A stretch of 64,000 nucleotides of DNA. It comes from an uncultured Actinomycetota bacterium. Lineage in GTDB: Bacteria > Actinomycetota > Actinomycetes > Streptosporangiales > Streptosporangiaceae. The notes below the pieces were generated by a model. That model worked only from the letters and a program-made list of their open reading frames with translations. It made no database searches and had not been told where the DNA came from. Location: NCBI GenBank assembly GCA_963822615.1, contig CAWGIM010000018.1, positions 147-64,146 on the forward strand, given 5' to 3'. The translations under genes were made by a program, and so were the position numbers. The first letter of the stretch is position 1. Each line of letters opens with the position of its first letter. Shown in pieces: positions 2,519-11,374 of this stretch.

Positions 2519-2650
2519 AAAGGCGGCACCACCCCGCCTCCGGGCAACGCAGAGTCGATCTGGCCGCCAGCCAAAGCCGCAGCCGATGACTGCGTGCAAC
2601 GATCGCGGCGCGGCTTGACAGCTCGCGCCTGCAGGCCGCCTTGATTTCCT

Positions 2651-2695
2651 GAGCCCCTTTACGGAATCGAACCGTAGACCTTCTCCTTACCATGG
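2651..2695 (-). repeat. att-type direct repeat: duplicated 3' part of tRNA-Thr
   Basis: GAGCCCCTTTACGGAATCGAACCGTAGACCTTCTCCTTACCATGG is identical at 2651-2695 and 7984-8028. Confidence 0.95.
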
Positions 2696-2817: not shown

Positions 2818-3222
2818 CTACGCGGCTTGCTCGGCAGGTTCGTGCTCCCACACTTGTATGACTTGCCATCGCGCCTCTGCGAGGCGCCGGTCGGTGTCAG
2901 CGACTCGCTACGCTGGACGTTGCGCGGCGAGTTTCGTGCTGCCCACCATATGACTGCCGTTGCTCTTCGGCTGTGTCCCGTGCTCCGGGCAGCCGTGCCA
3001 GAAACATCCCGTCAATGAACACCGCGACCCTGGCACCCCTGAAGAGGGGATCCGCCCGGCGCCGCATCCCTGGAATGACCGGCGCATCGACCCGGCACCG
3101 CAGTCCTGACTTGAAGAGGATTCGGCGGATAGCCATCTCGGCTTAGTGTCACGCCGCCGCTGCCTGGTCATCCGGGCAAGCGCCTCGGGACTAGAAGCTG
3201 AGGGCCGCTGACCGCTGGTCAT
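2818..3222 (-). pseudogene. vsr: Very short patch repair endonuclease (Vsr), multiply frameshifted
   Basis: Collinear Vsr segments spread over different frames: 'ARMTRQRRRDTKP', 'MAIRRILFKSGLRCRV...RRRAD..F..ARVAVFIDG', 'CFWHGCPEHGTQPKSN', 'DTDRRLAEARWQVIQVWEHE'. Confidence 0.85.
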
Positions 3223-3347
3223 GACACCAACGTATCTCGGCCCCTCCATCGGTCAGGCTACTGGTCGAAACTGCCATCTACCAGGACATTTCTATACTTC
3301 TCACGTACCGCGCATTTGCCTGGTATAGGGGCTTTCCCGCTGGTAGC

Positions 3348-4658
3348 TTGACGTTTGTGACGGACCCACCAGAGATAAGCGAGATATTCGAGCAGCATCT
3401 GCGCAACGTCCCGCATAGAGCATCGATAAATAACAAATACCGGATCTTCAATCGCGCACTGGCCGAGCTATTGAATATAGCTCCAGAGGATATTTACACA
3501 TCACATATAGCCAAGGCCGGTAACTTCGATGTCCGAATGACCCAATCTCCAGGAGCCCGCGAAGCAAAGCTCCGCGTCGCCCTCATCCCTGCTGTCCTTT
3601 TTGCAGATCGAGATCTAGCCTCTCTAAAAAATGCAGCCTGGAGGTTTGCGCGGGATAAGTTCCCGGGCAGCTCCGTGCTGCTAGTTTTTGATCAGCCCAA
3701 TGGATGGCGCCCCGCGTGGGCGGCAGAACCTGCAGACCGGCCAGATTCCGGGGCAGGGCTTTCTTACTTTTTCCGATACATCGAAGACTTCGAACTCTAC
3801 GAATACTCACCTCTTGCACAAGCGTCGGACGCCGGGATAAGCGTTACCCTCACCAAACAGGAGGCGCGACTGCTGAAGGTCATGTTGTCCCGTCCAGAGA
3901 CAACTAGGGCATTGTATGAGATCGAGCCGAATCTATTTGCCAGATTGATTGAAACCGATGTCTCGGCGCGAGATGTAGTAGCTATCGCACATCGCAAGTC
4001 AGTAGTTGACCGCTTTCGGCGCCTGCTTCAGGATCACGATTTCTTCGAAGATGCCGCCGAGGCCCTCGGCGGCAAAGAGGCAGTCTGGCAAAACCTCCTA
4101 GAGGAGAATCCCTGGATTCTCGGCGTCAGTCTCGCCGGGCAGCTCCTGACCAGCTGGGATGAGGAGAAACTGGAGAAGATCGTTGCCGGTTTCTCTGTCT
4201 CTGGGCCAGGAAAGCGAGTTGATGCGCTCATGCGCACCAACGGCAGCATCAGGGCTATGGTTTTCGCTGAGATCAAACACCATGAGACAGCCTTGCTGGG
4301 CGCAGAATATCGCCCGAGCTGCTGGGCGCCGTCACCCGAACTCGCGGGCGGCGTGGTTCAGGCTCAGCGAACGGTTCAGCTAGCTATTCGCCAGATCGGC
4401 GACCGGCTTGCCGATGAAGATGAGCACGGGATCGAAACCGGCGATTACACGTACCTAGTCCGCCCCCGCCAGTTTCTCATTCTCGGGAACCTTGCCGACT
4501 TCAGAGGCGAGCACGGAATCCACAGGCAGAAATACGAGTCTTTCGAGCTTTTCAGGCGCAATATACTTGAGCCCGAGATACTCACCTTTGACGAGCTGCT
4601 AGCCCGCGCCGAATGGCACATAGCGTCAGCAGACCGAGAAGAAAATTTATTCAAGTAG
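3348..4658 (+). CDS. sduA: Shedu anti-phage nuclease (DUF4263 C-terminal domain) with an unassigned N-terminal domain
   Basis: C-terminal 'WQNLLEENPWILG...KRVDALM...FAEIKHHET...ELAGGVVQAQ...FELFRRNILEPEILTFDELLARA' fits the DUF4263/SduA PD-(D/E)xK pattern. TTG start. Confidence 0.85.
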   Translation: MTFVTDPPEISEIFEQHLRNVPHRASINNKYRIFNRALAELLNIAPEDIYTSHIAKAGNFDVRMTQSPGAREAKLRVALIPAVLFADRDLASLKNAAWRFARDKFPGSSVLLVFDQPNGWRPAWAAEPADRPDSGAGLSYFFRYIEDFELYEYSPLAQASDAGISVTLTKQEARLLKVMLSRPETTRALYEIEPNLFARLIETDVSARDVVAIAHRKSVVDRFRRLLQDHDFFEDAAEALGGKEAVWQNLLEENPWILGVSLAGQLLTSWDEEKLEKIVAGFSVSGPGKRVDALMRTNGSIRAMVFAEIKHHETALLGAEYRPSCWAPSPELAGGVVQAQRTVQLAIRQIGDRLADEDEHGIETGDYTYLVRPRQFLILGNLADFRGEHGIHRQKYESFELFRRNILEPEILTFDELLARAEWHIASADREENLFK

Positions 4659-4700: not shown

Positions 4701-4848
4701 TGTGTGACTGACATTACGTTGACTCCGCAGAGCAAATATGCGCTTACCTTTAGGCGCGCACCTCTGCATAAGGCCGTAGATGCTAATCTCGGCCGGGCCT
4801 TCGGAGTGTCGGGTAGCGCGTCGCATCGTTGTGCGAGAGGATTCCGTT

Positions 4849-5997
4849 ATGGCTAGCCCTATGACCGCTGTCGGCCTCTTTGCCGGGATCGGTGGTGTCG
4901 AGGAAGGACTGGCCCGAGCCCACGCAGCAGAAGCCGAACTGCTAGTAGAAAACTGGGTTCCGGCGCAAGAGGTACTCCGAGCCCACTTCCCTGACGCCAA
5001 GCTCAAGGGCGATGTCACCGGCGTGAGGTCACTGCCCAAGGTGGACCTCCTGGCAGCTGGCTTTCCCTGCACGGACCTGTCGCAGGCTGGCCGTACCGCC
5101 GGTATCACCGGCAAGGCCAGCGGACTCGTCAGGTGCGTGTTCGACCTGCTCGAGTCCGCCAATCCCACATGGCTGGTCTTCGAAAATGTCCGGAACATGC
5201 TGGTGCTCGACAAGGGTGACGCCATGCGCTACCTAGTCGGAGAACTGGAGGAGCGCGGCTACAGGTGGGCGTACCGGCTGGTGGACAGCCGTTTCACTGG
5301 CGTCCCCCAACGGCGACAGCGAGTCATCATGCTTGCCAGTCGCACCGAGAACCCCGCTGACGTGCTTCTCGCTGACGACGCCGGAGAGCCCGCCGCAGAG
5401 CACTACCAGGATGCCGCCTTCGGCTTCTACTGGACCGAGGGGCTGACGGGCCTCGGATGGGCGCAGGACGCCATACCGACGCTCAAGCCCGGCAGCACGG
5501 TGGGCATCCCTAGTCCTCCCGGAATCTGGGTCAAGTCAGCCGAGCCCGGCCGCAAGCTCATCGTCCCGTCCATCGAGGAAGCCGAGGAACTCCAGGGCTT
5601 CGATCGGGGCTGGACAAGCGCTGCCGAATCCTCGAAGTCCAATGGTCCGCGGTGGAAACTCGTTGGAAACGCGGTGACGGTCGGCGTCAGCCAGTGGCTC
5701 GGCGGCAAGCTACTCGACCCCGGCCAGCATGACCAGCACAATGGCGCCCTCGTTTCGAACGGCCGATGGCCGCTCGCCGCATGGGGCGGCATCGGCAAGG
5801 TCTACCGTGCCGATGTATCGATGTGGCCGACCCGACTCCCCTACCGACACCTGCTGGACACCGTGGCGTCAGACACTGCGCGGCCCGTCAGCCACCGTGC
5901 TGCCGCAGGGTTCTACAGCCGCATGCTCAGGTCTGGTCTCAGATTCAACGAGGCGTTCAAGTCGGATGTCTGCGAGCATGTCCGGGTCACCAACTAG
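4849..5997 (+). CDS. DNA (cytosine-5) methyltransferase
   Basis: C5-MTase motifs in order: FAGIGG (I), GFPCTDLSQAG (IV, catalytic PC), ENV (VI), QRRQRV (VIII), GNAV (X). GAGAGG precedes the ATG at 4849. Confidence 0.95.
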   Translation: MASPMTAVGLFAGIGGVEEGLARAHAAEAELLVENWVPAQEVLRAHFPDAKLKGDVTGVRSLPKVDLLAAGFPCTDLSQAGRTAGITGKASGLVRCVFDLLESANPTWLVFENVRNMLVLDKGDAMRYLVGELEERGYRWAYRLVDSRFTGVPQRRQRVIMLASRTENPADVLLADDAGEPAAEHYQDAAFGFYWTEGLTGLGWAQDAIPTLKPGSTVGIPSPPGIWVKSAEPGRKLIVPSIEEAEELQGFDRGWTSAAESSKSNGPRWKLVGNAVTVGVSQWLGGKLLDPGQHDQHNGALVSNGRWPLAAWGGIGKVYRADVSMWPTRLPYRHLLDTVASDTARPVSHRAAAGFYSRMLRSGLRFNEAFKSDVCEHVRVTN

Positions 5998-6896
5998 GTG
6001 TCCAGGTCTTGGGTATCGTCTGCGCTCTCAATTACTTGGTCAAGGGTAAGTTCTTGCTCGGCTTCGAGGCCAGTCGGTAGGGAACCCTCTGGAGGCGCCC
6101 ATCCAGGGTCATCCTCGGCATAACGCTCATGCCTGTTAACGCCCGTATTCCTAAGAATCACGGCATCGTCGATGGTCTCGATTAGCTCGGCGAGGCTAAT
6201 CGTCTGCGTGTCCGGTGGCGGCTGATTTCTTCGAGGAGCCTGCGTCACATCGAAGAAACGAACGTGTCCGGCTTCGTCAAACAGGCCGATATAAACCTGC
6301 TCGAAGAGGTCGAAGCGGGAATCAGGCGACCCTCGCCCGGTGCGCTTACGGAGCGTGAATACAACATGGGCGAAACTACTCTGCCCCGCAACGCCATCCC
6401 AAGCCGCATCTTCATTCATGAAGAAGATTCCGGTTAGCACCGCGTAAGGCTGCCGCCGATGGAGCGTGTCAGCCTCGTCACGGAGCTCCATGTCATTGCG
6501 CTTTACGTTCTTGACGTAGCGCCCCACCCTGGCAGGCTGAGTCTTCGTAGTGGGCTGAGTATCGCGAAACGTATACGTCTTGATCGATATGCCTGCGACC
6601 AGGCCCGCCGCGTCATCCCAGACGCCAACGTCAGTGCGCTTCCGGTCAACCTTGGCACCCACGCTGAACTCCTGGCCGGACCCGTCCGGCCGCGGCGTCA
6701 CCCTGGCCCTGGGGTACCTCGGCCGTAGGTGATCGGCGAACGTCATCGCCAGAGCATTGCTGAACCGCTGCGCCCAGTTCTTCTTGGCCGCTCGGTTATC
6801 GCCACCGGCCACGGTCAAGGTGTCGGGCTTGGGCAGGCCTGCGGCCTCAAGTGCGGCCAACAGCGGCGCCTCGCCAGGGTCGCTGTCCATCGCCAC
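5994..6896 (-). CDS. Putative type II restriction endonuclease (PD-(D/E)xK-like)
   Basis: 300-aa ORF convergent with the MTase; the two stops share one CTAG. Candidate catalytic residues 'KRTDV...GISIK'. The call rests on context plus this motif. Confidence 0.55.
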   Translation of the reverse strand: MAMDSDPGEAPLLAALEAAGLPKPDTLTVAGGDNRAAKKNWAQRFSNALAMTFADHLRPRYPRARVTPRPDGSGQEFSVGAKVDRKRTDVGVWDDAAGLVAGISIKTYTFRDTQPTTKTQPARVGRYVKNVKRNDMELRDEADTLHRRQPYAVLTGIFFMNEDAAWDGVAGQSSFAHVVFTLRKRTGRGSPDSRFDLFEQVYIGLFDEAGHVRFFDVTQAPRRNQPPPDTQTISLAELIETIDDAVILRNTGVNRHERYAEDDPGWAPPEGSLPTGLEAEQELTLDQVIESADDTQDLDT

Positions 6897-7126: not shown

Positions 7127-7744
7127 GGGGTCTTCGAGCAGTCGCCCCACCTCGGCCTGGACAACGTGGAGACCGTTCAGAACAGCATCAGCAAGTCCTC
7201 GTCCAAGCTGGTCGCGTACAACACGCTGCACACCGCGTTCGACACCGGCTGGAGGATTGACCTGAACGACCAGGCGAGCCTCGACAAGGAGATCAAGTGG
7301 GTCGTGGACGCCTTCGACGACCTGGCGCGGGCCCTTCCGATTGGCAAGGTTGGGGAGGCCGCGGCTCAGAAGCTACGTGACAGCAGTGTGGTCCGCAGCG
7401 CGGTCCTGGTGCAGGGCTACATCGCCCTGATGTGCGAGATCCGCGAGCTTGACGGCTCGCCCGAGGAGTACTTCCAGAAGCTGCCGGGGAGCATCACGCT
7501 GGAGGCCGACTCGGCCGAGACCGTGCGCGACAAGGACGGCGAGATCGTGCCTCGCTTCTGCGCGGGTGAGGTAGTCGACTTCTTCTCCTACGCCAACCCG
7601 ATCTGGAGGGAGACCGGGTTCCTGCGGCCCAACGTGGACAAGAAGACCGGGCTCACCAAGATGGGCATGTTCAACGCCCGCCAGCAGCGCAACAACGTCA
7701 TCGCGGTGCTGCGGGAGCGGGTCGGCCTGCCCGACGCGAGCTGA
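7127..7744 (+). pseudogene. 5'-truncated DndB/DGQHR-like protein remnant
   Basis: 'VETVQNSISKSSSKLVAYNTL', 'LRDSSVVRSAVLVQG' and 'FSYANPIWR' resemble the C-terminal half of DndB-like proteins as I recall them. In-frame TAG at 7124; a frameshift near 7125-7131 joins an upstream fragment. No N-terminal half is present. Confidence 0.4.
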
Positions 7745-7778
7745 CGAGCTCCAACCGGGGAACCCACCGCGGCTGATT

Positions 7779-7820
7779 CCAAGCGGCCCCGACCGGCGTG
7801 CGCCGGTCGGGGCCGCTTGG
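7779..7820. terminator. Long perfect inverted repeat, likely bidirectional terminator
   Basis: CCAAGCGGCCCCGACCGGCG-tg-CGCCGGTCGGGGCCGCTTGG: 20-bp arms between the convergent DndB-like remnant and tRNA-Thr. Confidence 0.7.
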
Positions 7821-7984
7821 CATGCTGCCGGTAAGGCCACCATCCGAGCCAGTTGGATTTCAACGCGTCTTCAACGCAGACACCCGTAGAGGACCGGCTA
7901 AGACCGCAGATAGCCGGAAACCGAAAACGCCACCCGATCGGCTTTCTTCCTAATGGAGTGGCATTTTTCGTGCTTACGTTCGGG

Positions 7985-8057
7985 AGCCCCTTTACGGAAT
8001 CGAACCGTAGACCTTCTCCTTACCATGGAGACGCTCTGCCGACTGAGCTAAAGGGGC
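7985..8057 (-). tRNA. tRNA-Thr (GGT)
   Basis: Reverse complement folds as a cloverleaf: acceptor GCCCCTT/AAGGGGC, D arm GCTC/GAGC, anticodon stem TCTCC/GGAGA with loop ATGGTAA, T arm TACGG-TTCGATT-CCGTA. CCA is not encoded. Confidence 0.97.
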
Positions 8058-8175
8058 CTGCCGCAACTGCCGACGGCGATGAGCTTACCGTACTTTCAAC
8101 GTGTTGGTGACTTGGGCTGGAGGCCGCGCCCGTGCCCGGCGCACAGGGCACGCAGACGGCCTGCCAGCCTCCGGG

Positions 8176-9248: not shown

Positions 9249-10007
9249 ATGAAGATCGCAGTCGCGGGATCCACGGGCCGCATCGGACGGCTCACCATCA
9301 AGGCACTCCAGGGCGCCGGGCACGAGGCCGTGCGCATCAGCCGCAGCGACGGCACCGACCTGCTCACGGGCGATGGGCTCGACGCGGCGCTGGCCGGGGC
9401 GGACGCCGTCATCGATTGCCTCAACAACTCGTCACAGGACGAGGCGGAAGTAGTGCACTTCTTCGGCACGACGACGCGGAACCTGCTGGCGGCCGAGGCG
9501 CGGGCCGGCGTGGGCCACCACGTGCTGCTGTCCATCGTGGGGCTGGACCGCGGGACCCGTTCGCCGCACTACGCGGGCAAGCGGGAACAGGAACGCCTGG
9601 TCACCGAGGGGCCCACACCGTGGTCGATCGTCCGGGTGACCCAGTTCCACGACTTCGCGGCCATGGTGACCGGGTGGCTGGAGCAGGACGGCGTGGCCAG
9701 TATCGCGCCGCTGCTGGTGCAGCCGATCGACCAGCTTGACGTGGCGGCCGTGCTCGCCGAGGTGGCGGCCGGGGCGCCGCTGCGGGACAAGATCGACGTG
9801 GCCGGGCCGCAGCCGCAGGACCTGGTGGACATGGCCCGCCGCTCCTATGCCGCCCGGGGACGGCCGATCACGCTGATCCCCACCTGGCACGCGGGGTTCG
9901 ACCAGTCGATGGCGGGCGACGTGCTGCTTCCCGGCCAGGACGCGCGCCTTGCGCCCATCTCCTTCGAGGACTGGCTGGCGGCCGGGGCACCGGACAGCCG
10001 CGGCTAG
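9249..10007 (+). CDS. NAD(P)H-binding NmrA/SDR-like oxidoreductase
   Basis: 'MKIAVAGSTGRIG' Rossmann motif, 'HHVLLSIVG' and 'RVTQFHDF'. Divergent from the Rrf2 gene. Confidence 0.85.
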   Translation: MKIAVAGSTGRIGRLTIKALQGAGHEAVRISRSDGTDLLTGDGLDAALAGADAVIDCLNNSSQDEAEVVHFFGTTTRNLLAAEARAGVGHHVLLSIVGLDRGTRSPHYAGKREQERLVTEGPTPWSIVRVTQFHDFAAMVTGWLEQDGVASIAPLLVQPIDQLDVAAVLAEVAAGAPLRDKIDVAGPQPQDLVDMARRSYAARGRPITLIPTWHAGFDQSMAGDVLLPGQDARLAPISFEDWLAAGAPDSRG

Positions 10008-10010
10008 CTC

Positions 10011-10199
10011 TCAGGCGCCCTCGGCCGGCAACTCGGTCCCCAGCAGCGCGCCGTATGCCTCGATGGCGAGGTCGATGTCCTTGGAGGCCATGTGGCCGAC
10101 CAGGAAGGCCAGGCCTTCCCGGCTGAGGTCGCCCATCATGCACAGCAGCGCCACCAGGCGCTCGGCGTACTCGGGGGCGATCCCCTCTGGGTGATTCAT
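10011..10199 (-). CDS. Small hypothetical protein (62 aa)
   Basis: ATG start, host-like codon use, non-repetitive composition. Confidence 0.5.
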   Translation of the reverse strand: MNHPEGIAPEYAERLVALLCMMGDLSREGLAFLVGHMASKDIDLAIEAYGALLGTELPAEGA

Positions 10200-10336
10200 G
10201 CGGTTACGTTACCTTTGTGCGCTTTGTCGCCGCAGGTCATCCGGAAATCCGCCGGTCATCGGGAAGTGGAGCCTGCGCGGGGCCGCCGCAAGGGGGGACG
10301 GCGGCCCCGCGCAGGAGCTTGCTGACCGCTGCCCGG

Positions 10337-11374
10337 TTACTGCTGGAAGTCCGGGTTGGCGGTGGTGATGTCGTAGCTGCTCCCCCAGTACCACTGGGTG
10401 GCGCTGGAGCCGGGCACGACGTGGTTGACGCCGGTGGGGTCGGCGATCCAGTACCTGACCTTGGACTGCATCCACCCCGGGAGGGTCGCCACGTTGTCCT
10501 TGACCTGCTGCCACTCGGCCCGCATGGTGTAGACGACCGCGATCGAGTGGGGCTGCGAGGTCAGCCGCTGCTTCACCCACTGGGCCGCGGCCTGCGGGGT
10601 GGCGTCGCCCGGCTCGACGTCGAGGACGTTGGCGCCCGGGTCGGTGGCCTGGGTGTCGATCCACAGCACGGTGTGGTGGCCGGCGACCGTGTTCGGCTGG
10701 GTCGCGTAGGCGCCGGTGGCGTAGACGGCGGCCGCCTCGCCGGCCGGCAGCGAGCCCGGCTGCACCGAGTCGTAGATCAGGTAAGGCTTCGCCGCAGCGG
10801 CCTTCGCCGCGGCGGCCTTGGCCGCCGCCTCTTTCGCGGCGGATACCCGGGCGGCCGCTGACTTGGCCGCCGCCGCCTTAACCGCCGCCGCCTTGGCCGC
10901 GGCGGCCTGGGTGGTGGTCGCCGCGGCGGCGTGCTTGCCCACGTAGGGCTGCGCGGCGGGCGCCTTGGGGGCCGTCACCGTGGCGGCGTGCTTGCCCAGC
11001 GCCACCGCGGTGCTGTGCGAGGAGGTCGCGGCCGAGTGCAGCGCGTCCAGCTCGGTGGTGCCGCCTGCCGTCTTGCTGCCGGTGATCGGGGCGAACGCGA
11101 AGGCGCCGGACTGGCCGACGGCCACCTTCCCGTCGCCCTGCGCGACGTGGCCGACGTTGTCGAGCGCCTGCGCCCAGGGGGCCGCGCCAACGGCGAAGCC
11201 CGCCGCGCCGAGCACGCCCGCGGTGGCGGCGGAGGCGGCCAGCGCGGTGACCCGGGTGTGGGCGCGGGCCTGGGCACGGGCCTGGGTGAGGGCCGCGGTT
11301 CCGGTGGAGCGGGCGAAAGAGTTCGCGGCCGTGTACGTGTTTGCTGCTACACGAGTGAGGGAAGTGGTGGACAT
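10337..11374 (-). CDS. Secreted or membrane-anchored protein with Ala-rich linker and C-terminal GH25-like muramidase domain
   Basis: Hydrophobic segment 'VLGAAGFAVGAAPW', then an AAAK-rich linker. C-terminal domain has 'IYDS', 'LDVEPGD' (DxE), 'VYT', 'YWIAD' and 'ATQW...YD'. Confidence 0.6.
   Translation of the reverse strand: MSTTSLTRVAANTYTAANSFARSTGTAALTQARAQARAHTRVTALAASAATAGVLGAAGFAVGAAPWAQALDNVGHVAQGDGKVAVGQSGAFAFAPITGSKTAGGTTELDALHSAATSSHSTAVALGKHAATVTAPKAPAAQPYVGKHAAAATTTQAAAAKAAAVKAAAAKSAAARVSAAKEAAAKAAAAKAAAAKPYLIYDSVQPGSLPAGEAAAVYATGAYATQPNTVAGHHTVLWIDTQATDPGANVLDVEPGDATPQAAAQWVKQRLTSQPHSIAVVYTMRAEWQQVKDNVATLPGWMQSKVRYWIADPTGVNHVVPGSSATQWYWGSSYDITTANPDFQQ

What the first reader, a model, noticed from the sequence alone, without database searches (positions are those of the whole stretch)
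3348..3860. Shedu nuclease with an unrecognised ~170-aa N-terminal domain and foreign composition
Seen: the DUF4263 domain occupies only the C-terminal ~200 aa. The N-terminus (HRASINNKYRIFNRALAELL...GNFDVRMTQS...WRPAW) matches no family I recognise. This part is AT-richer (25/60 G+C on line 3421) than the neighbouring MTase (40/60 on line 5101). Established: Shedu nucleases carry swappable N-terminal sensor domains. Inference: a possibly new sensor class, acquired separately from the R-M genes. Next to an MTase it might read DNA modification state or R-M products.
Basis: partly seen in the sequence, partly recalled or inferred. Interest (0 to 1): 0.68.

Follow-up and report, generated by a model that had tools for sequence, protein, structure and literature searches.

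The report
Methylase-linked Shedu nuclease, catalogued N27 domain
The gene is a real Shedu defence nuclease whose N-terminal domain is not new (it is the uncharacterised "N27" DNA-binding class of a 2023 survey), but in every relative examined that domain sits beside one family of cytosine methylases and is fused to several different effectors, which suggests it acts as the DNA reader of a modular restriction-modification system.

Summary
ORF 3348(3357)-4658 (+) encodes a 433-436 aa Shedu nuclease. The SduA_C domain covers aa 243-418 and the D292/E308/K310/Q338 site is intact. The distinct N-terminal domain (aa 8-155) folds confidently (pLDDT 88) and has no Pfam, NCBIfam or PDB match.

The "new sensor class" reading fails. 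Two homologues are listed as NTD family "N27" (class 1G, "DNA binding") in Gu et al. 2023. "Acquired separately from the R-M genes" also fails. In 15 of 16 contexts checked, the domain's gene lies next to one conserved clade of C5 methylase (44-78% identical, TRD included), usually as Dcm-Vsr-effector. The lower G+C of the nuclease gene recurs in all seven homologue loci measured.

The domain is not Shedu-specific. Among 112 cluster representatives it is mostly fused to AAA_5/McrB-like ATPases (39) and ABC/AAA_21 ATPases (13), with only 7 full-length Shedu nuclease fusions and 1 GmrSD_N fusion. A relative with the same nuclease core but an N3 domain has no methylase nearby.

Best reading, inferred: N27 reads the unmethylated target of the linked methylase and makes the Shedu nuclease a restriction subunit.

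The locus is a decaying 5.3-kb tRNA-Thr island with a dead, inverted vsr.

The parts
2646..2695 (.). Left copy of a 50-nt direct repeat (45 nt exact) that duplicates the 3' half of tRNA-Thr. It is the att-like left border of a 5.3-kb island.
   Evidence: the repeat finder family D1, spacing 5333 nt; alignment; both copies match the same tRNA in L007.
2839..3222 (-). vsr (very-short-patch repair endonuclease) pseudogene. It has at least two frameshifts and an in-frame stop, and it is inverted relative to the vsr of homologous loci.
   Evidence: tblastn with intact Vsr proteins from L003, L005 and L008 gives HSPs in frames -2/-1/-2 with a stop; weak Pfam Vsr hit; blastn shows reversed orientation versus L001, L003, L006, L007 and L008.
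3348..4658 (+). sduA, a Shedu nuclease of the N27 (Type 1G) architecture. It is 436 aa from TTG 3348, or 433 aa from GTG 3357.
3369..3812 (+). N27 N-terminal domain (aa 8-155), an alpha/beta fold. Signature: S/K30, Y50, S-K56-x-G-N59-x-x-V-R63-x-x-Q66-S67, W120, W124.
   Evidence: AF2 pLDDT 87.7, pTM 0.84, and the same fold within the full-length model; conservation; homology to listed N27 proteins.
3813..3863 (+). Variable, low-confidence linker (aa 156-172). It is the junction at which N27 and N3 architectures diverge.
   Evidence: pLDDT 38-67; length-variable and gapped in A1; BLASTP matches of N3-type relatives begin at aa 143-183.
3864..4073 (+). Helical region (aa 173-242) that precedes the nuclease domain and is shared with N3-type Shedu relatives.
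   Evidence: PADLOC PDLC00394 alignment starts at aa 173; invariant Y190, D204, D209, R216 and F223; helices 170-240.
4074..4640 (+). SduA_C / DUF4263 PD-(D/E)xK nuclease domain (aa 243-431) with D292, E308-x-K310 and Q338/Q340 intact.
   Evidence: Pfam E 6.9e-29; alignment to B. cereus Shedu 8ti8, E 9.6e-9; these columns are invariant in 33 sequences; Foldseek 8ti8 E 1.3e-5 and 8ps5 E 2.4e-3, from a low-confidence model.
4780..5997 (+). C5 cytosine DNA methyltransferase (Dcm-type, Type II). It belongs to the clade that accompanies N27 genes everywhere. Motifs GLFAGIGG, GFPCTDLS, ENV, QRRQR and GNAV are intact, and a conserved ~100-aa C-terminal extension follows.
   Evidence: Pfam PF00145 E 9.4e-41, PADLOC MTase_II E 1.5e-120, TIGR00675; 44-78% identity over full length to the methylases of 12 other loci, with the TRD region 0.72-0.88 conserved.
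5994..6896 (-). orf300, a probable Type II restriction endonuclease. It is convergent with dcm and overlaps it by 4 nt. It occurs only in the window-type arrangement (window, L006, L007).
   Evidence: No Pfam, NCBIfam, PADLOC or PDB hit; 77-78% identical orthologues in the same position in L006 and L007; remote homologues lie directly after N-6 methylase genes on two plasmids.
7982..8058 (-). tRNA-Thr (GGT), the integration site. Its 3' half (7979-8028) is the right copy of the direct repeat.
   Evidence: ARAGORN; repeat.

Best explanation
The gene encodes an intact Shedu PD-(D/E)xK nuclease of the already catalogued N27 (Type 1G, 'DNA-binding') architecture.

Shown:
- The N27 domain is a self-contained ~150-aa alpha/beta module.
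- In 15 of 16 contexts examined, its gene lies next to one conserved clade of C5 cytosine methylase, usually with vsr.
- The domain is fused interchangeably to Shedu nucleases, AAA_5/McrB-like ATPases (with a McrC or an unknown partner), ABC/AAA_21 ATPases and a GmrSD_N protein.

Inferred:
- N27 is the target-recognition module of a modular restriction-modification system.
- It binds the recognition sequence of the linked methylase when that sequence is unmethylated. The invariant N59/R63/Q66 face of helix 57-65 is the proposed contact surface.
- Binding releases or positions the fused effector, here the Shedu nuclease tetramer, which then cuts foreign DNA.
- The methylase protects host DNA, and Vsr repairs T:G mismatches that arise from 5mC deamination.

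In this window the cassette sits in a decaying 5.3-kb tRNA-Thr island. It also carries a probable classical restriction enzyme (orf300) and a dead, inverted vsr.
For: Shedu identity: Pfam, PADLOC and PDB sequence matches with intact catalytic residues.

N27 identity.

Independent fold: AF2 pLDDT 87.7 alone, and the same fold inside the full-length model.

Methylase linkage:
- Dcm-Vsr-N27-SduA in L001/2, L003/4 and L005.
- Dcm-N27-SduA in L009, L011 and L016.
- vsr, N27-SduA, Dcm, then orf300 on the opposite strand, in the window, L006 and L007.
- Dcm-Vsr-N27-AAA_5 plus a 391-396-aa partner in L008/10 and in both P0126 places; Dcm-N27-AAA_5 in L012.
- Dcm-N27-AAA_21 in L013.
- N27-McrB-McrC with convergent Vsr and Dcm in L014/15.
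- Dcm, then a vsr remnant fused to a stand-alone N27, in L020.
- Sources.

The methylases form one clade with a conserved TRD, so a single target sequence for a single conserved reader is plausible.

Control: an N3-type Shedu with a 60% identical nuclease core has no methylase within 5 kb. Gu et al. report only 602 of 5,499 Shedu genes inside R-M loci.

Architecture census: with Pfam confirmation.

The conserved polar residues N59, R63 and Q66 (at least 94% of 86 domains) have i/i+4/i+7 spacing on a predicted helix.

Precedent: LlaJI is a C5-methylase-linked McrBC-like system that restricts unmethylated DNA (PMC1459862). Methylase-associated McrBC clades are noted in PMC11090510.
Against: - No direct evidence that N27 binds DNA. 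The 'DNA binding' label in Gu et al. rests on structure comparison that I could not inspect.
- Foldseek finds no significant structural relative in PDB or BFVD.
- The domain is not consistently basic (family median pI 6.9).
- The window-type loci already have a probable restriction enzyme (orf300), so a second restriction nuclease would be redundant there.
- One distant fusion (P0226, GmrSD_N) has no methylase called nearby.
- The contexts are phylogenetically related, so 15 of 16 overstates independence.
- Characterised Shedu enzymes sense DNA ends rather than sequences (abstracts).
Confidence: 0.5

Rival explanations
1. N27 is a protein-protein adaptor that docks the effector onto the linked methylase. 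The methylase then supplies the DNA recognition, as Mod does for Res in Type III systems or the M2S complex does for HsdR in Type I systems.
For: Strict co-occurrence with a single methylase clade. That clade carries a conserved ~100-aa C-terminal extension after motif X whose role is unknown. N27 is not consistently basic. There is no structural match to known DNA-binding folds.
Against: PADLOC's MTase_II profile PDLC03324 (E 1.5e-120) aligns aa 28-401 of this methylase, C-terminal extension included, so the extension is a feature of that methylase family as a whole; whether members without N27 partners also carry it was not tested. Gu et al. file N27 under DNA-binding domains. The invariant N/R/Q helix face looks more like a nucleic-acid contact. 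N-terminal domains of McrB-family proteins are, as far as known, DNA readers (PMC11090510).
Confidence: 0.2
2. This is an ordinary stand-alone Shedu. N27 is an auto-inhibitory sensor of a generic infection cue such as DNA ends, ssDNA or an unusual structure. The methylase is merely a co-travelling neighbour in defence islands.
For: Characterised B. cereus and E. coli Shedu act alone and sense DNA ends. Removal of the NTD activates B. cereus Shedu. Shedu genes are often found in defence islands and R-M loci.
Against: The linkage follows the N27 domain across five unrelated effector types. It does not follow the nuclease core. The genes are tightly packed or overlapping in one orientation; for example, in L003 vsr (7541-8026) overlaps sduA (starts 8001). 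The methylase clade is always the same.
Confidence: 0.12
3. N27 is a modification-dependent (Type IV-like) reader. It targets foreign DNA that carries a modification different from the host's own 5mC pattern.
For: Fusions to canonical McrB GTPases with McrC, to a GmrSD_N (DUF262) protein, and to EVE-like plus McrB architectures.
Against: A modification-dependent nuclease has no need for an obligatory, conserved methylase next door and would risk self-restriction. LlaJI shows that McrBC-type motors can be directed at unmethylated DNA (PMC1459862).
Confidence: 0.1

Closest known systems
Shedu Type 1G, NTD family N27 (Gu, Li, Deep, Enustun, Zhang & Corbett 2023, bioRxiv 10.1101/2023.08.10.552793, Table S3)
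   Same: Same domain family (BLASTP E 2e-18 to MCO1658903.1; hhalign probability 98.5% to WP_143227489.1). Same N27+DUF4263 architecture. Same phylum: all 13 listed members are Actinobacteria.
   Different: The survey only lists and classes the domain as 'DNA binding'. In the text and table parts I could read, I found no mention of its strict linkage to a C5 methylase and Vsr, nor of its occurrence on McrB, AAA_5, ABC or GmrSD effectors. The window protein itself is a new member, 49% identical to the listed Pseudonocardia protein.
Bacillus cereus Shedu (PDB 8ti8; Type 1A, sPC4/Whirly NTD) and the N3-type Shedu of Mycolicibacterium and Corallococcus
   Same: Homologous nuclease core with the same D...ExK...Q site. 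N3-type proteins share 57-64% identity from aa ~175 to the end.
   Different: The N-terminal domain is unrelated (hhalign probability 0.3%; Foldseek with the NTD model does not find 8ti8). The N3-type control locus has no methylase neighbour.
Escherichia coli SduA (PDB 8ps4/8ps5), which senses DNA ends through an N-terminal clamp
   Same: Same nuclease family (Foldseek E 2.4e-3 with the full-length model).
   Different: The NTD model does not match the E. coli clamp domain. Nothing here indicates end sensing.
LlaJI-type R-M systems (C5 methylases plus McrB-like R1 and McrC-like R2; PMC1459862)
   Same: Same logic as proposed here: a C5 methylase protects, and a small N-terminal reader on the restriction subunit targets unmethylated DNA. 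N27-McrB+McrC and N27-AAA_5 relatives have this same gene layout.
   Different: LlaJI uses a different reader domain, and its effector is a GTPase motor plus nuclease.
Methylase-fused Shedu (Type 1D, N6_N4_Mtase NTD), proposed by Gu et al. to be equivalent to Type II R-M
   Same: A Shedu nuclease proposed to act as the restriction arm of an R-M system.
   Different: Here the methylase is a separate C5 enzyme encoded by an adjacent gene, and the NTD is non-enzymatic.

Membership tests
Shedu (SduA) nuclease family | DUF4263 / SduA_C domain | tested here: met
   Pfam PF14082 E 6.9e-29, aa 243-418; PADLOC SduA PDLC00394 E 1.6e-104.
Shedu (SduA) nuclease family | PD-(D/E)xK catalytic residues (D, ExK, Q) present | tested here: met
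   D292, E308, K310 and Q338/Q340 are invariant in 33 sequences and align with the VD...EIK...TQ motifs of B. cereus Shedu 8ti8.
Shedu (SduA) nuclease family | Fold similar to solved Shedu structures | tested here: inconclusive
   Foldseek top hits are 8ti8 (E 1.3e-5, probability 1.0) and 8ps5 (E 2.4e-3). However, the nuclease part of the model has pLDDT 28-57.
Shedu (SduA) nuclease family | Homotetramer; single-gene anti-phage activity | not testable with these tools
   Needs biochemistry and plaque assays. Gene context suggests dependence on a methylase instead.
Shedu NTD family N27 (Type 1G, Gu et al. 2023) | Sequence membership in the cluster that contains the listed N27 proteins | tested here: met
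   Window aa 31-127 versus MCO1658903.1: 40% identity, E 2e-18. NTD profile versus WP_143227489.1: hhalign probability 98.5%, E 1.7e-15. Both accessions are listed as 4263N27.
Shedu NTD family N27 (Type 1G, Gu et al. 2023) | DNA binding | not testable with these tools
   This is only a class label in Table S3. No significant fold match was found here.
Shedu Type 1A (sPC4/Whirly NTD: N3, B. cereus) | Whirly-like N-terminal domain | tested here: not met
   hhalign of the NTD profile against 14 N3 NTDs gives probability 0.3%. The predicted topology is alpha/beta (H-H-E-H-H-E-H-H-E-E) and does not hit 8ti8.
Inactive restriction-endonuclease-fold (iREase) domains | alpha-beta-beta-beta-alpha-beta core related to PD-(D/E)xK enzymes | tested here: inconclusive
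   Only weak hints: Pfam NA-iREase1 E 0.016 in 1 of 32 members; BFVD MmcB-like proteins E 0.03-0.6, TM 0.31-0.35; PDB YaeQ E 0.42. The predicted strand order is not the classical one.
Type II restriction-modification system (restriction subunit) | Cognate methylase encoded next to the nuclease | tested here: met
   dcm lies 121 nt downstream in the window. A methylase of the same clade is adjacent in all N27-SduA loci.
Type II restriction-modification system (restriction subunit) | Sequence-specific cleavage blocked by the cognate methylation | not testable with these tools
   Requires cleavage and EMSA assays with methylated and unmethylated DNA.

The most novel reading that the evidence does not exclude
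N27 is a methylation-sensitive, sequence-specific DNA reader that defines a previously unrecognised modular R-M family. In this family one conserved C5 methylase (plus or minus Vsr) is paired with interchangeable N27-tagged executioners: a Shedu nuclease, McrB+McrC, AAA_5 plus partner, or an ABC ATPase. N27-type Shedu would then be a classical, methylase-dependent restriction enzyme rather than a stand-alone DNA-end sensor.
Probability: 0.4. Interest if true: 0.65.

Novelty: new member of a known kind. Interest (0 to 1): 0.45.

Why it matters
How the many Shedu N-terminal domains sense infection is known for only two types, both of which read DNA ends. N27 offers an unusually tractable case for three reasons. 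Its ligand is predicted by gene context (the unmethylated site of the neighbouring methylase). The same reader appears on four or five different effectors, so domain-swap logic can be tested directly. The prediction that the nuclease is toxic without the methylase is simple to check. If confirmed, part of the Shedu family would be reassigned to conventional restriction-modification, and a new compact DNA-reader domain would be added to the toolbox. If not confirmed, the gene is one more member of a listed but uncharacterised Shedu subtype.

Tried and rejected
- A word-indexed homology search with the NTD alone found nothing. Full-length and profile searches were needed.
- Pfam, NCBIfam and PDB sequence searches of the NTD gave no usable hit. 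The single PDB hit (12fk, E 0.56) only shares the GNFDVRxTQ string.
- Foldseek of the confident NTD model against PDB and BFVD gave no hit at E <= 0.001. I therefore do not assign a fold. The REase-fold idea stays a hint.
- The full-length AF2 model was poor in the nuclease half, so I used it only for the NTD boundary and as a weak Shedu check.
- Pattern-based locus scans of genomes and metagenomes returned only 5 loci, because the pattern (NF[DAG]VR[MA]TQS) was narrow. Contexts came mainly from exact-protein look-ups.
- A search for sequencing runs found no RNA data, so expression is untested.
- The sigma-70-like site at 3271-3298 is not above chance.
- The inverted repeat 2901-2925/3401-3425 (80% complementary) was considered as a cause of the vsr inversion. 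I rejected it as probably chance, because its right arm lies inside the intact NTD coding sequence.
- G+C as evidence for separate acquisition was rejected, because the gap is a family trait.
- I ran no further search on orf300. Its methylase-adjacent plasmid homologues were judged sufficient.
- Table S3 of Gu et al. is only partly held, so I could not see their N27 model or read the full Type 1G sheet.
Full report
**What is there**

The window is high-G+C actinomycete DNA (70.4% overall). Pfam finds SduA_C (PF14082) at aa 243-418 with E 6.9e-29. The best PADLOC Shedu profile (PDLC00394, E 1.6e-104) aligns aa 173-431 to profile positions 130-389, so its N-terminal 129 positions and our aa 1-172 do not match.

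Against PDB sequences, the only hits are B. cereus Shedu 8ti8/8ti9 over aa 242-422. There the VD..., EIK and ...Q catalytic motifs line up. D292, E308, K310 and Q338/Q340 are invariant among 33 homologues.

**The gene start**

The public gene call for this protein (P0001, 373 aa) starts at M64. However, aa 8-63 are conserved in more than 30 homologues, most of which begin at the position of V4. A 433-aa call (P0232) also exists. The real start is therefore TTG 3348 or, more likely, GTG 3357. The M64 call cuts the N-terminal domain in half.

**The N-terminal domain as an object**

Thirty-two full-length relatives (48-67% identical overall, 27-58% in the N-terminal part) share these motifs:
- FExLLRxVxH
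- KYRxFE
- IYTxHV
- GNFDVRMTQS
- LRVALVP
- GWxPRWG

V62, R63, Q66, S67, W120 and W124 are invariant.

AlphaFold2 on the domain alone gives pLDDT 87.7 and pTM 0.84, with the order H-H-E-H-H-E-H-H-E-E. In the full-length model the same fold recurs and extends to about aa 155, whereas the nuclease half is poorly modelled.

No Pfam, NCBIfam or PDB-sequence match exists. Foldseek finds nothing at E <= 0.001 in PDB or BFVD, and it does not find the N-terminal domains of the two solved Shedu proteins, 8ti8 and 8ps4/5. Weak, non-significant hints point to a degenerate restriction-endonuclease-like fold: NA-iREase1 in 1 of 32 members, MmcB-like phage proteins, and YaeQ. I leave the fold unassigned.

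**Is it a new sensor class? No**

Gu et al. 2023 (10.1101/2023.08.10.552793) clustered Shedu N-terminal domains into 79 families in eight classes. Exact look-up shows that our homologue P0034 is MCO1658903.1 and that P0150 is WP_143227489.1. Both are listed in their Table S3 as '4263N27+DUF4263'.

N27 has 13 rows, all Actinobacteria. It is filed under 'Type 1G, DNA binding'. The window domain matches P0034 directly (BLASTP E 2e-18), and the domain profile matches P0150 at hhalign probability 98.5%.

The domain is nevertheless uncharacterised. The main text of that paper never mentions N27.

**Domain swapping**

The proteins with the closest nuclease cores (57-64% identical from aa ~175 onward; for example M. 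neoaurum AHC24708.1 and Corallococcus WP_120529633.1) are listed as N3, which is Type 1A, sPC4/Whirly. Their N-terminal regions are unrelated to ours (hhalign probability 0.3%). The junction lies in the variable linker at aa ~143-183.

**The domain is not Shedu-specific**

A profile search of 1.84 billion cluster representatives gave 112 hits at E <= 0.001. Clustering the remainder of each protein gave the census below, which Pfam confirms on examples.

| Fusion partner | Representatives |
|---|---|
| AAA_5/McrB-like ATPases, several with the canonical FHPSYxYEDF McrB motif | 39 |
| ABC/AAA_21-type ATPases of ~690 aa | 13 |
| Shedu nuclease, two distant subfamilies (5 + 2) | 7 |
| GmrSD_N (DUF262) protein | 1 |
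| Tandem N27 | 2 |
| Short proteins or fragments | 48 |

Two hits (P0202, P0222) are repeat-protein false positives.

Across 86 domains of all architectures, the signature is S27, K30, Y50, S-K56-x-G-N59-x-x-V-R63-x-x-Q66-S67, W120. N59, R63 and Q66 are at least 94% conserved. Their i/i+4/i+7 spacing on predicted helix 57-65 would place them on one helical face. This last point is inference.

**Gene context**

Every close N27 gene I could place lies beside a C5 methylase.

| Layout | Loci or places |
|---|---|
| Dcm > Vsr > N27-SduA | L001/2, L003/4, L005 (Pseudonocardia humida) |
| Dcm > N27-SduA | L009, L011, L016 (Actinomadura mexicana) |
| vsr, N27-SduA > Dcm > < orf300 | window, L006, L007 |
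| Dcm > Vsr > N27-AAA_5 > 391-396-aa partner | L008/10, both P0126 places |
| Dcm > N27-AAA_5 | L012 |
| Dcm > N27-AAA_21 | L013 (Streptomyces sp. ISL-1) |
| N27-McrB > McrC, < Vsr < Dcm | L014/15 |
| Dcm > vsr remnant fused to a stand-alone N27 | L020 |

The only exception is a distant GmrSD_N fusion, P0226, whose domain E-value is 2.4e-4.

The methylases are 44-78% identical to the window's over their full length. The target-recognition region (column conservation 0.72-0.88) and a ~100-aa C-terminal extension are also conserved. They therefore probably share one specificity.

Two controls show that the linkage tracks the N27 domain and not the nuclease:
- An N3-type Shedu with a 60% identical nuclease core has no methylase within 5 kb.
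- Gu et al. found only 602 of 5,499 Shedu genes inside R-M loci.

**Composition**

| Feature | G+C | GC3 |
|---|---|---|
| sduA (whole gene) | 55% | 60% |
| sduA N-terminal part | 54% | – |
| dcm | 64.5% | 76% |
| orf300 | 61% | – |
| host genes | 70-72% | 86-91% |

The N-terminal part does not differ from the rest of the gene. The same 4-9-point deficit of the effector gene relative to its methylase is seen in all seven homologue loci measured. It is therefore a family trait and not a sign of separate acquisition.

**The island**

- A 50-nt direct repeat (45 nt exact) at 2646-2695 and 7979-8028 duplicates the 3' half of tRNA-Thr(GGT) (7982-8058, minus strand). It bounds a 5.3-kb island with no integrase.
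- The vsr copy (about 2839-3222, minus strand) has at least two frameshifts and an in-frame stop. It is inverted relative to all homologous loci.
- orf300 (5994-6896, minus strand) overlaps the end of dcm by 4 nt and has 77-78% identical orthologues in L006 and L007. Its remote homologues follow N-6 methylase genes on two plasmids. It is probably a classical Type II restriction enzyme.

**Mechanism**

Shown:
- The Shedu nuclease is intact.
- N27 is an autonomous, promiscuous module.
- N27 genes are tightly and specifically linked to one methylase clade.
- Effectors are interchangeable behind N27.

Inferred: N27 supplies self/non-self discrimination for whichever effector it carries. Most simply, it would do so by binding the methylase's target sequence only when that sequence is unmethylated.

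The precedent is LlaJI, where C5 methylases protect against a McrB-like/McrC-like restriction complex that attacks unmethylated DNA (PMC1459862). The Koonin-group McrBC census also notes methylase-associated and DISARM-associated McrBC clades, left for a later paper (PMC11090510).

I put this reading at about 0.5. The rivals are:
- N27 docks on the methylase, which itself reads the DNA (0.2).
- It is an ordinary stand-alone Shedu sensor with a co-travelling methylase (0.12).
- It is a modification-dependent reader (0.1).

**Verdict**

The feature is real and correctly located. It is a new member of an already listed but uncharacterised Shedu subtype (N27, Type 1G), not a new sensor class. It was co-inherited with the methylase, not acquired apart from it.

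What goes beyond the literature I could read is that N27 is shared among several defence effectors and is almost always paired with one C5-methylase clade. This yields a concrete and cheap experimental prediction.

Noticed in passing
window 2646-2695 and 7979-8028: A 50-nt direct repeat (45 nt exact) duplicates the 3' half of tRNA-Thr(GGT). It delimits a 5.3-kb genomic island that contains vsr, sduA, dcm, orf300 and orf192 but no integrase, so it looks like a decayed integrative element.
   Followed up: yes
window 2839-3222 (-): The vsr gene is a pseudogene with at least two frameshifts and an in-frame stop. It is inverted relative to the co-directional vsr of all homologous loci.
   Followed up: yes
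window 5994-6896 (-): A 300-aa ORF with no family hit overlaps the dcm stop by 4 nt. It has 77-78% identical orthologues in L006 and L007. Remote homologues sit directly after N-6 methylase genes on Mycobacterium and Cryobacterium plasmids. It is probably an unclassified Type II restriction endonuclease.
   Followed up: partly
window 3348-3536: The public gene call for this protein (373 aa) starts at M64 and omits 63 conserved residues, which truncates the N27 domain. This is an annotation error.
   Followed up: yes
window 5680-5994 (Dcm aa ~300-405); same region in L001-L016 methylases: The methylases of this clade carry a conserved ~100-aa C-terminal extension after motif X (RWPxAAWG...VSMWP...PYxHLLD...PLSxRAxxGF...LRF) of unknown role. 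It is a candidate docking surface for N27.
   Followed up: no
L003 1-5987; L013 5028-9780; L006 2640-7472; P0126 place: DISARM-like genes (large helicase, MZB/DUF1998, PLD, SNF2) flank the Dcm/N27 cassette in several relatives. The methylase might double as a DrmMII-like component there. None of these genes lies in the window's island.
   Followed up: no
L008 8528-9703; P0126 place 9512-10702: A 391-396-aa protein with no Pfam hit always follows the N27-AAA_5 gene. It is a likely McrC-like partner nuclease of unknown family.
   Followed up: no
P0159, P0167 (proteins): Some proteins carry two N27 domains in tandem. Many ~130-150-aa stand-alone N27 proteins also exist, and one (P0156, L020) is fused in frame to a vsr remnant.
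   Followed up: partly
window 7166-7744 (+): A 192-aa ORF with host-like GC3 (0.93) lies inside the island. It has only a weak partial DndB hit (E 0.011, profile positions 187-287 of 338) and may be a gene fragment.
   Followed up: no
window 7776-7823: A near-perfect palindrome (23-nt arms, 96% complementary, 2-nt spacer) lies between orf192 and tRNA-Thr. It could be a terminator hairpin or a recombination site.
   Followed up: no
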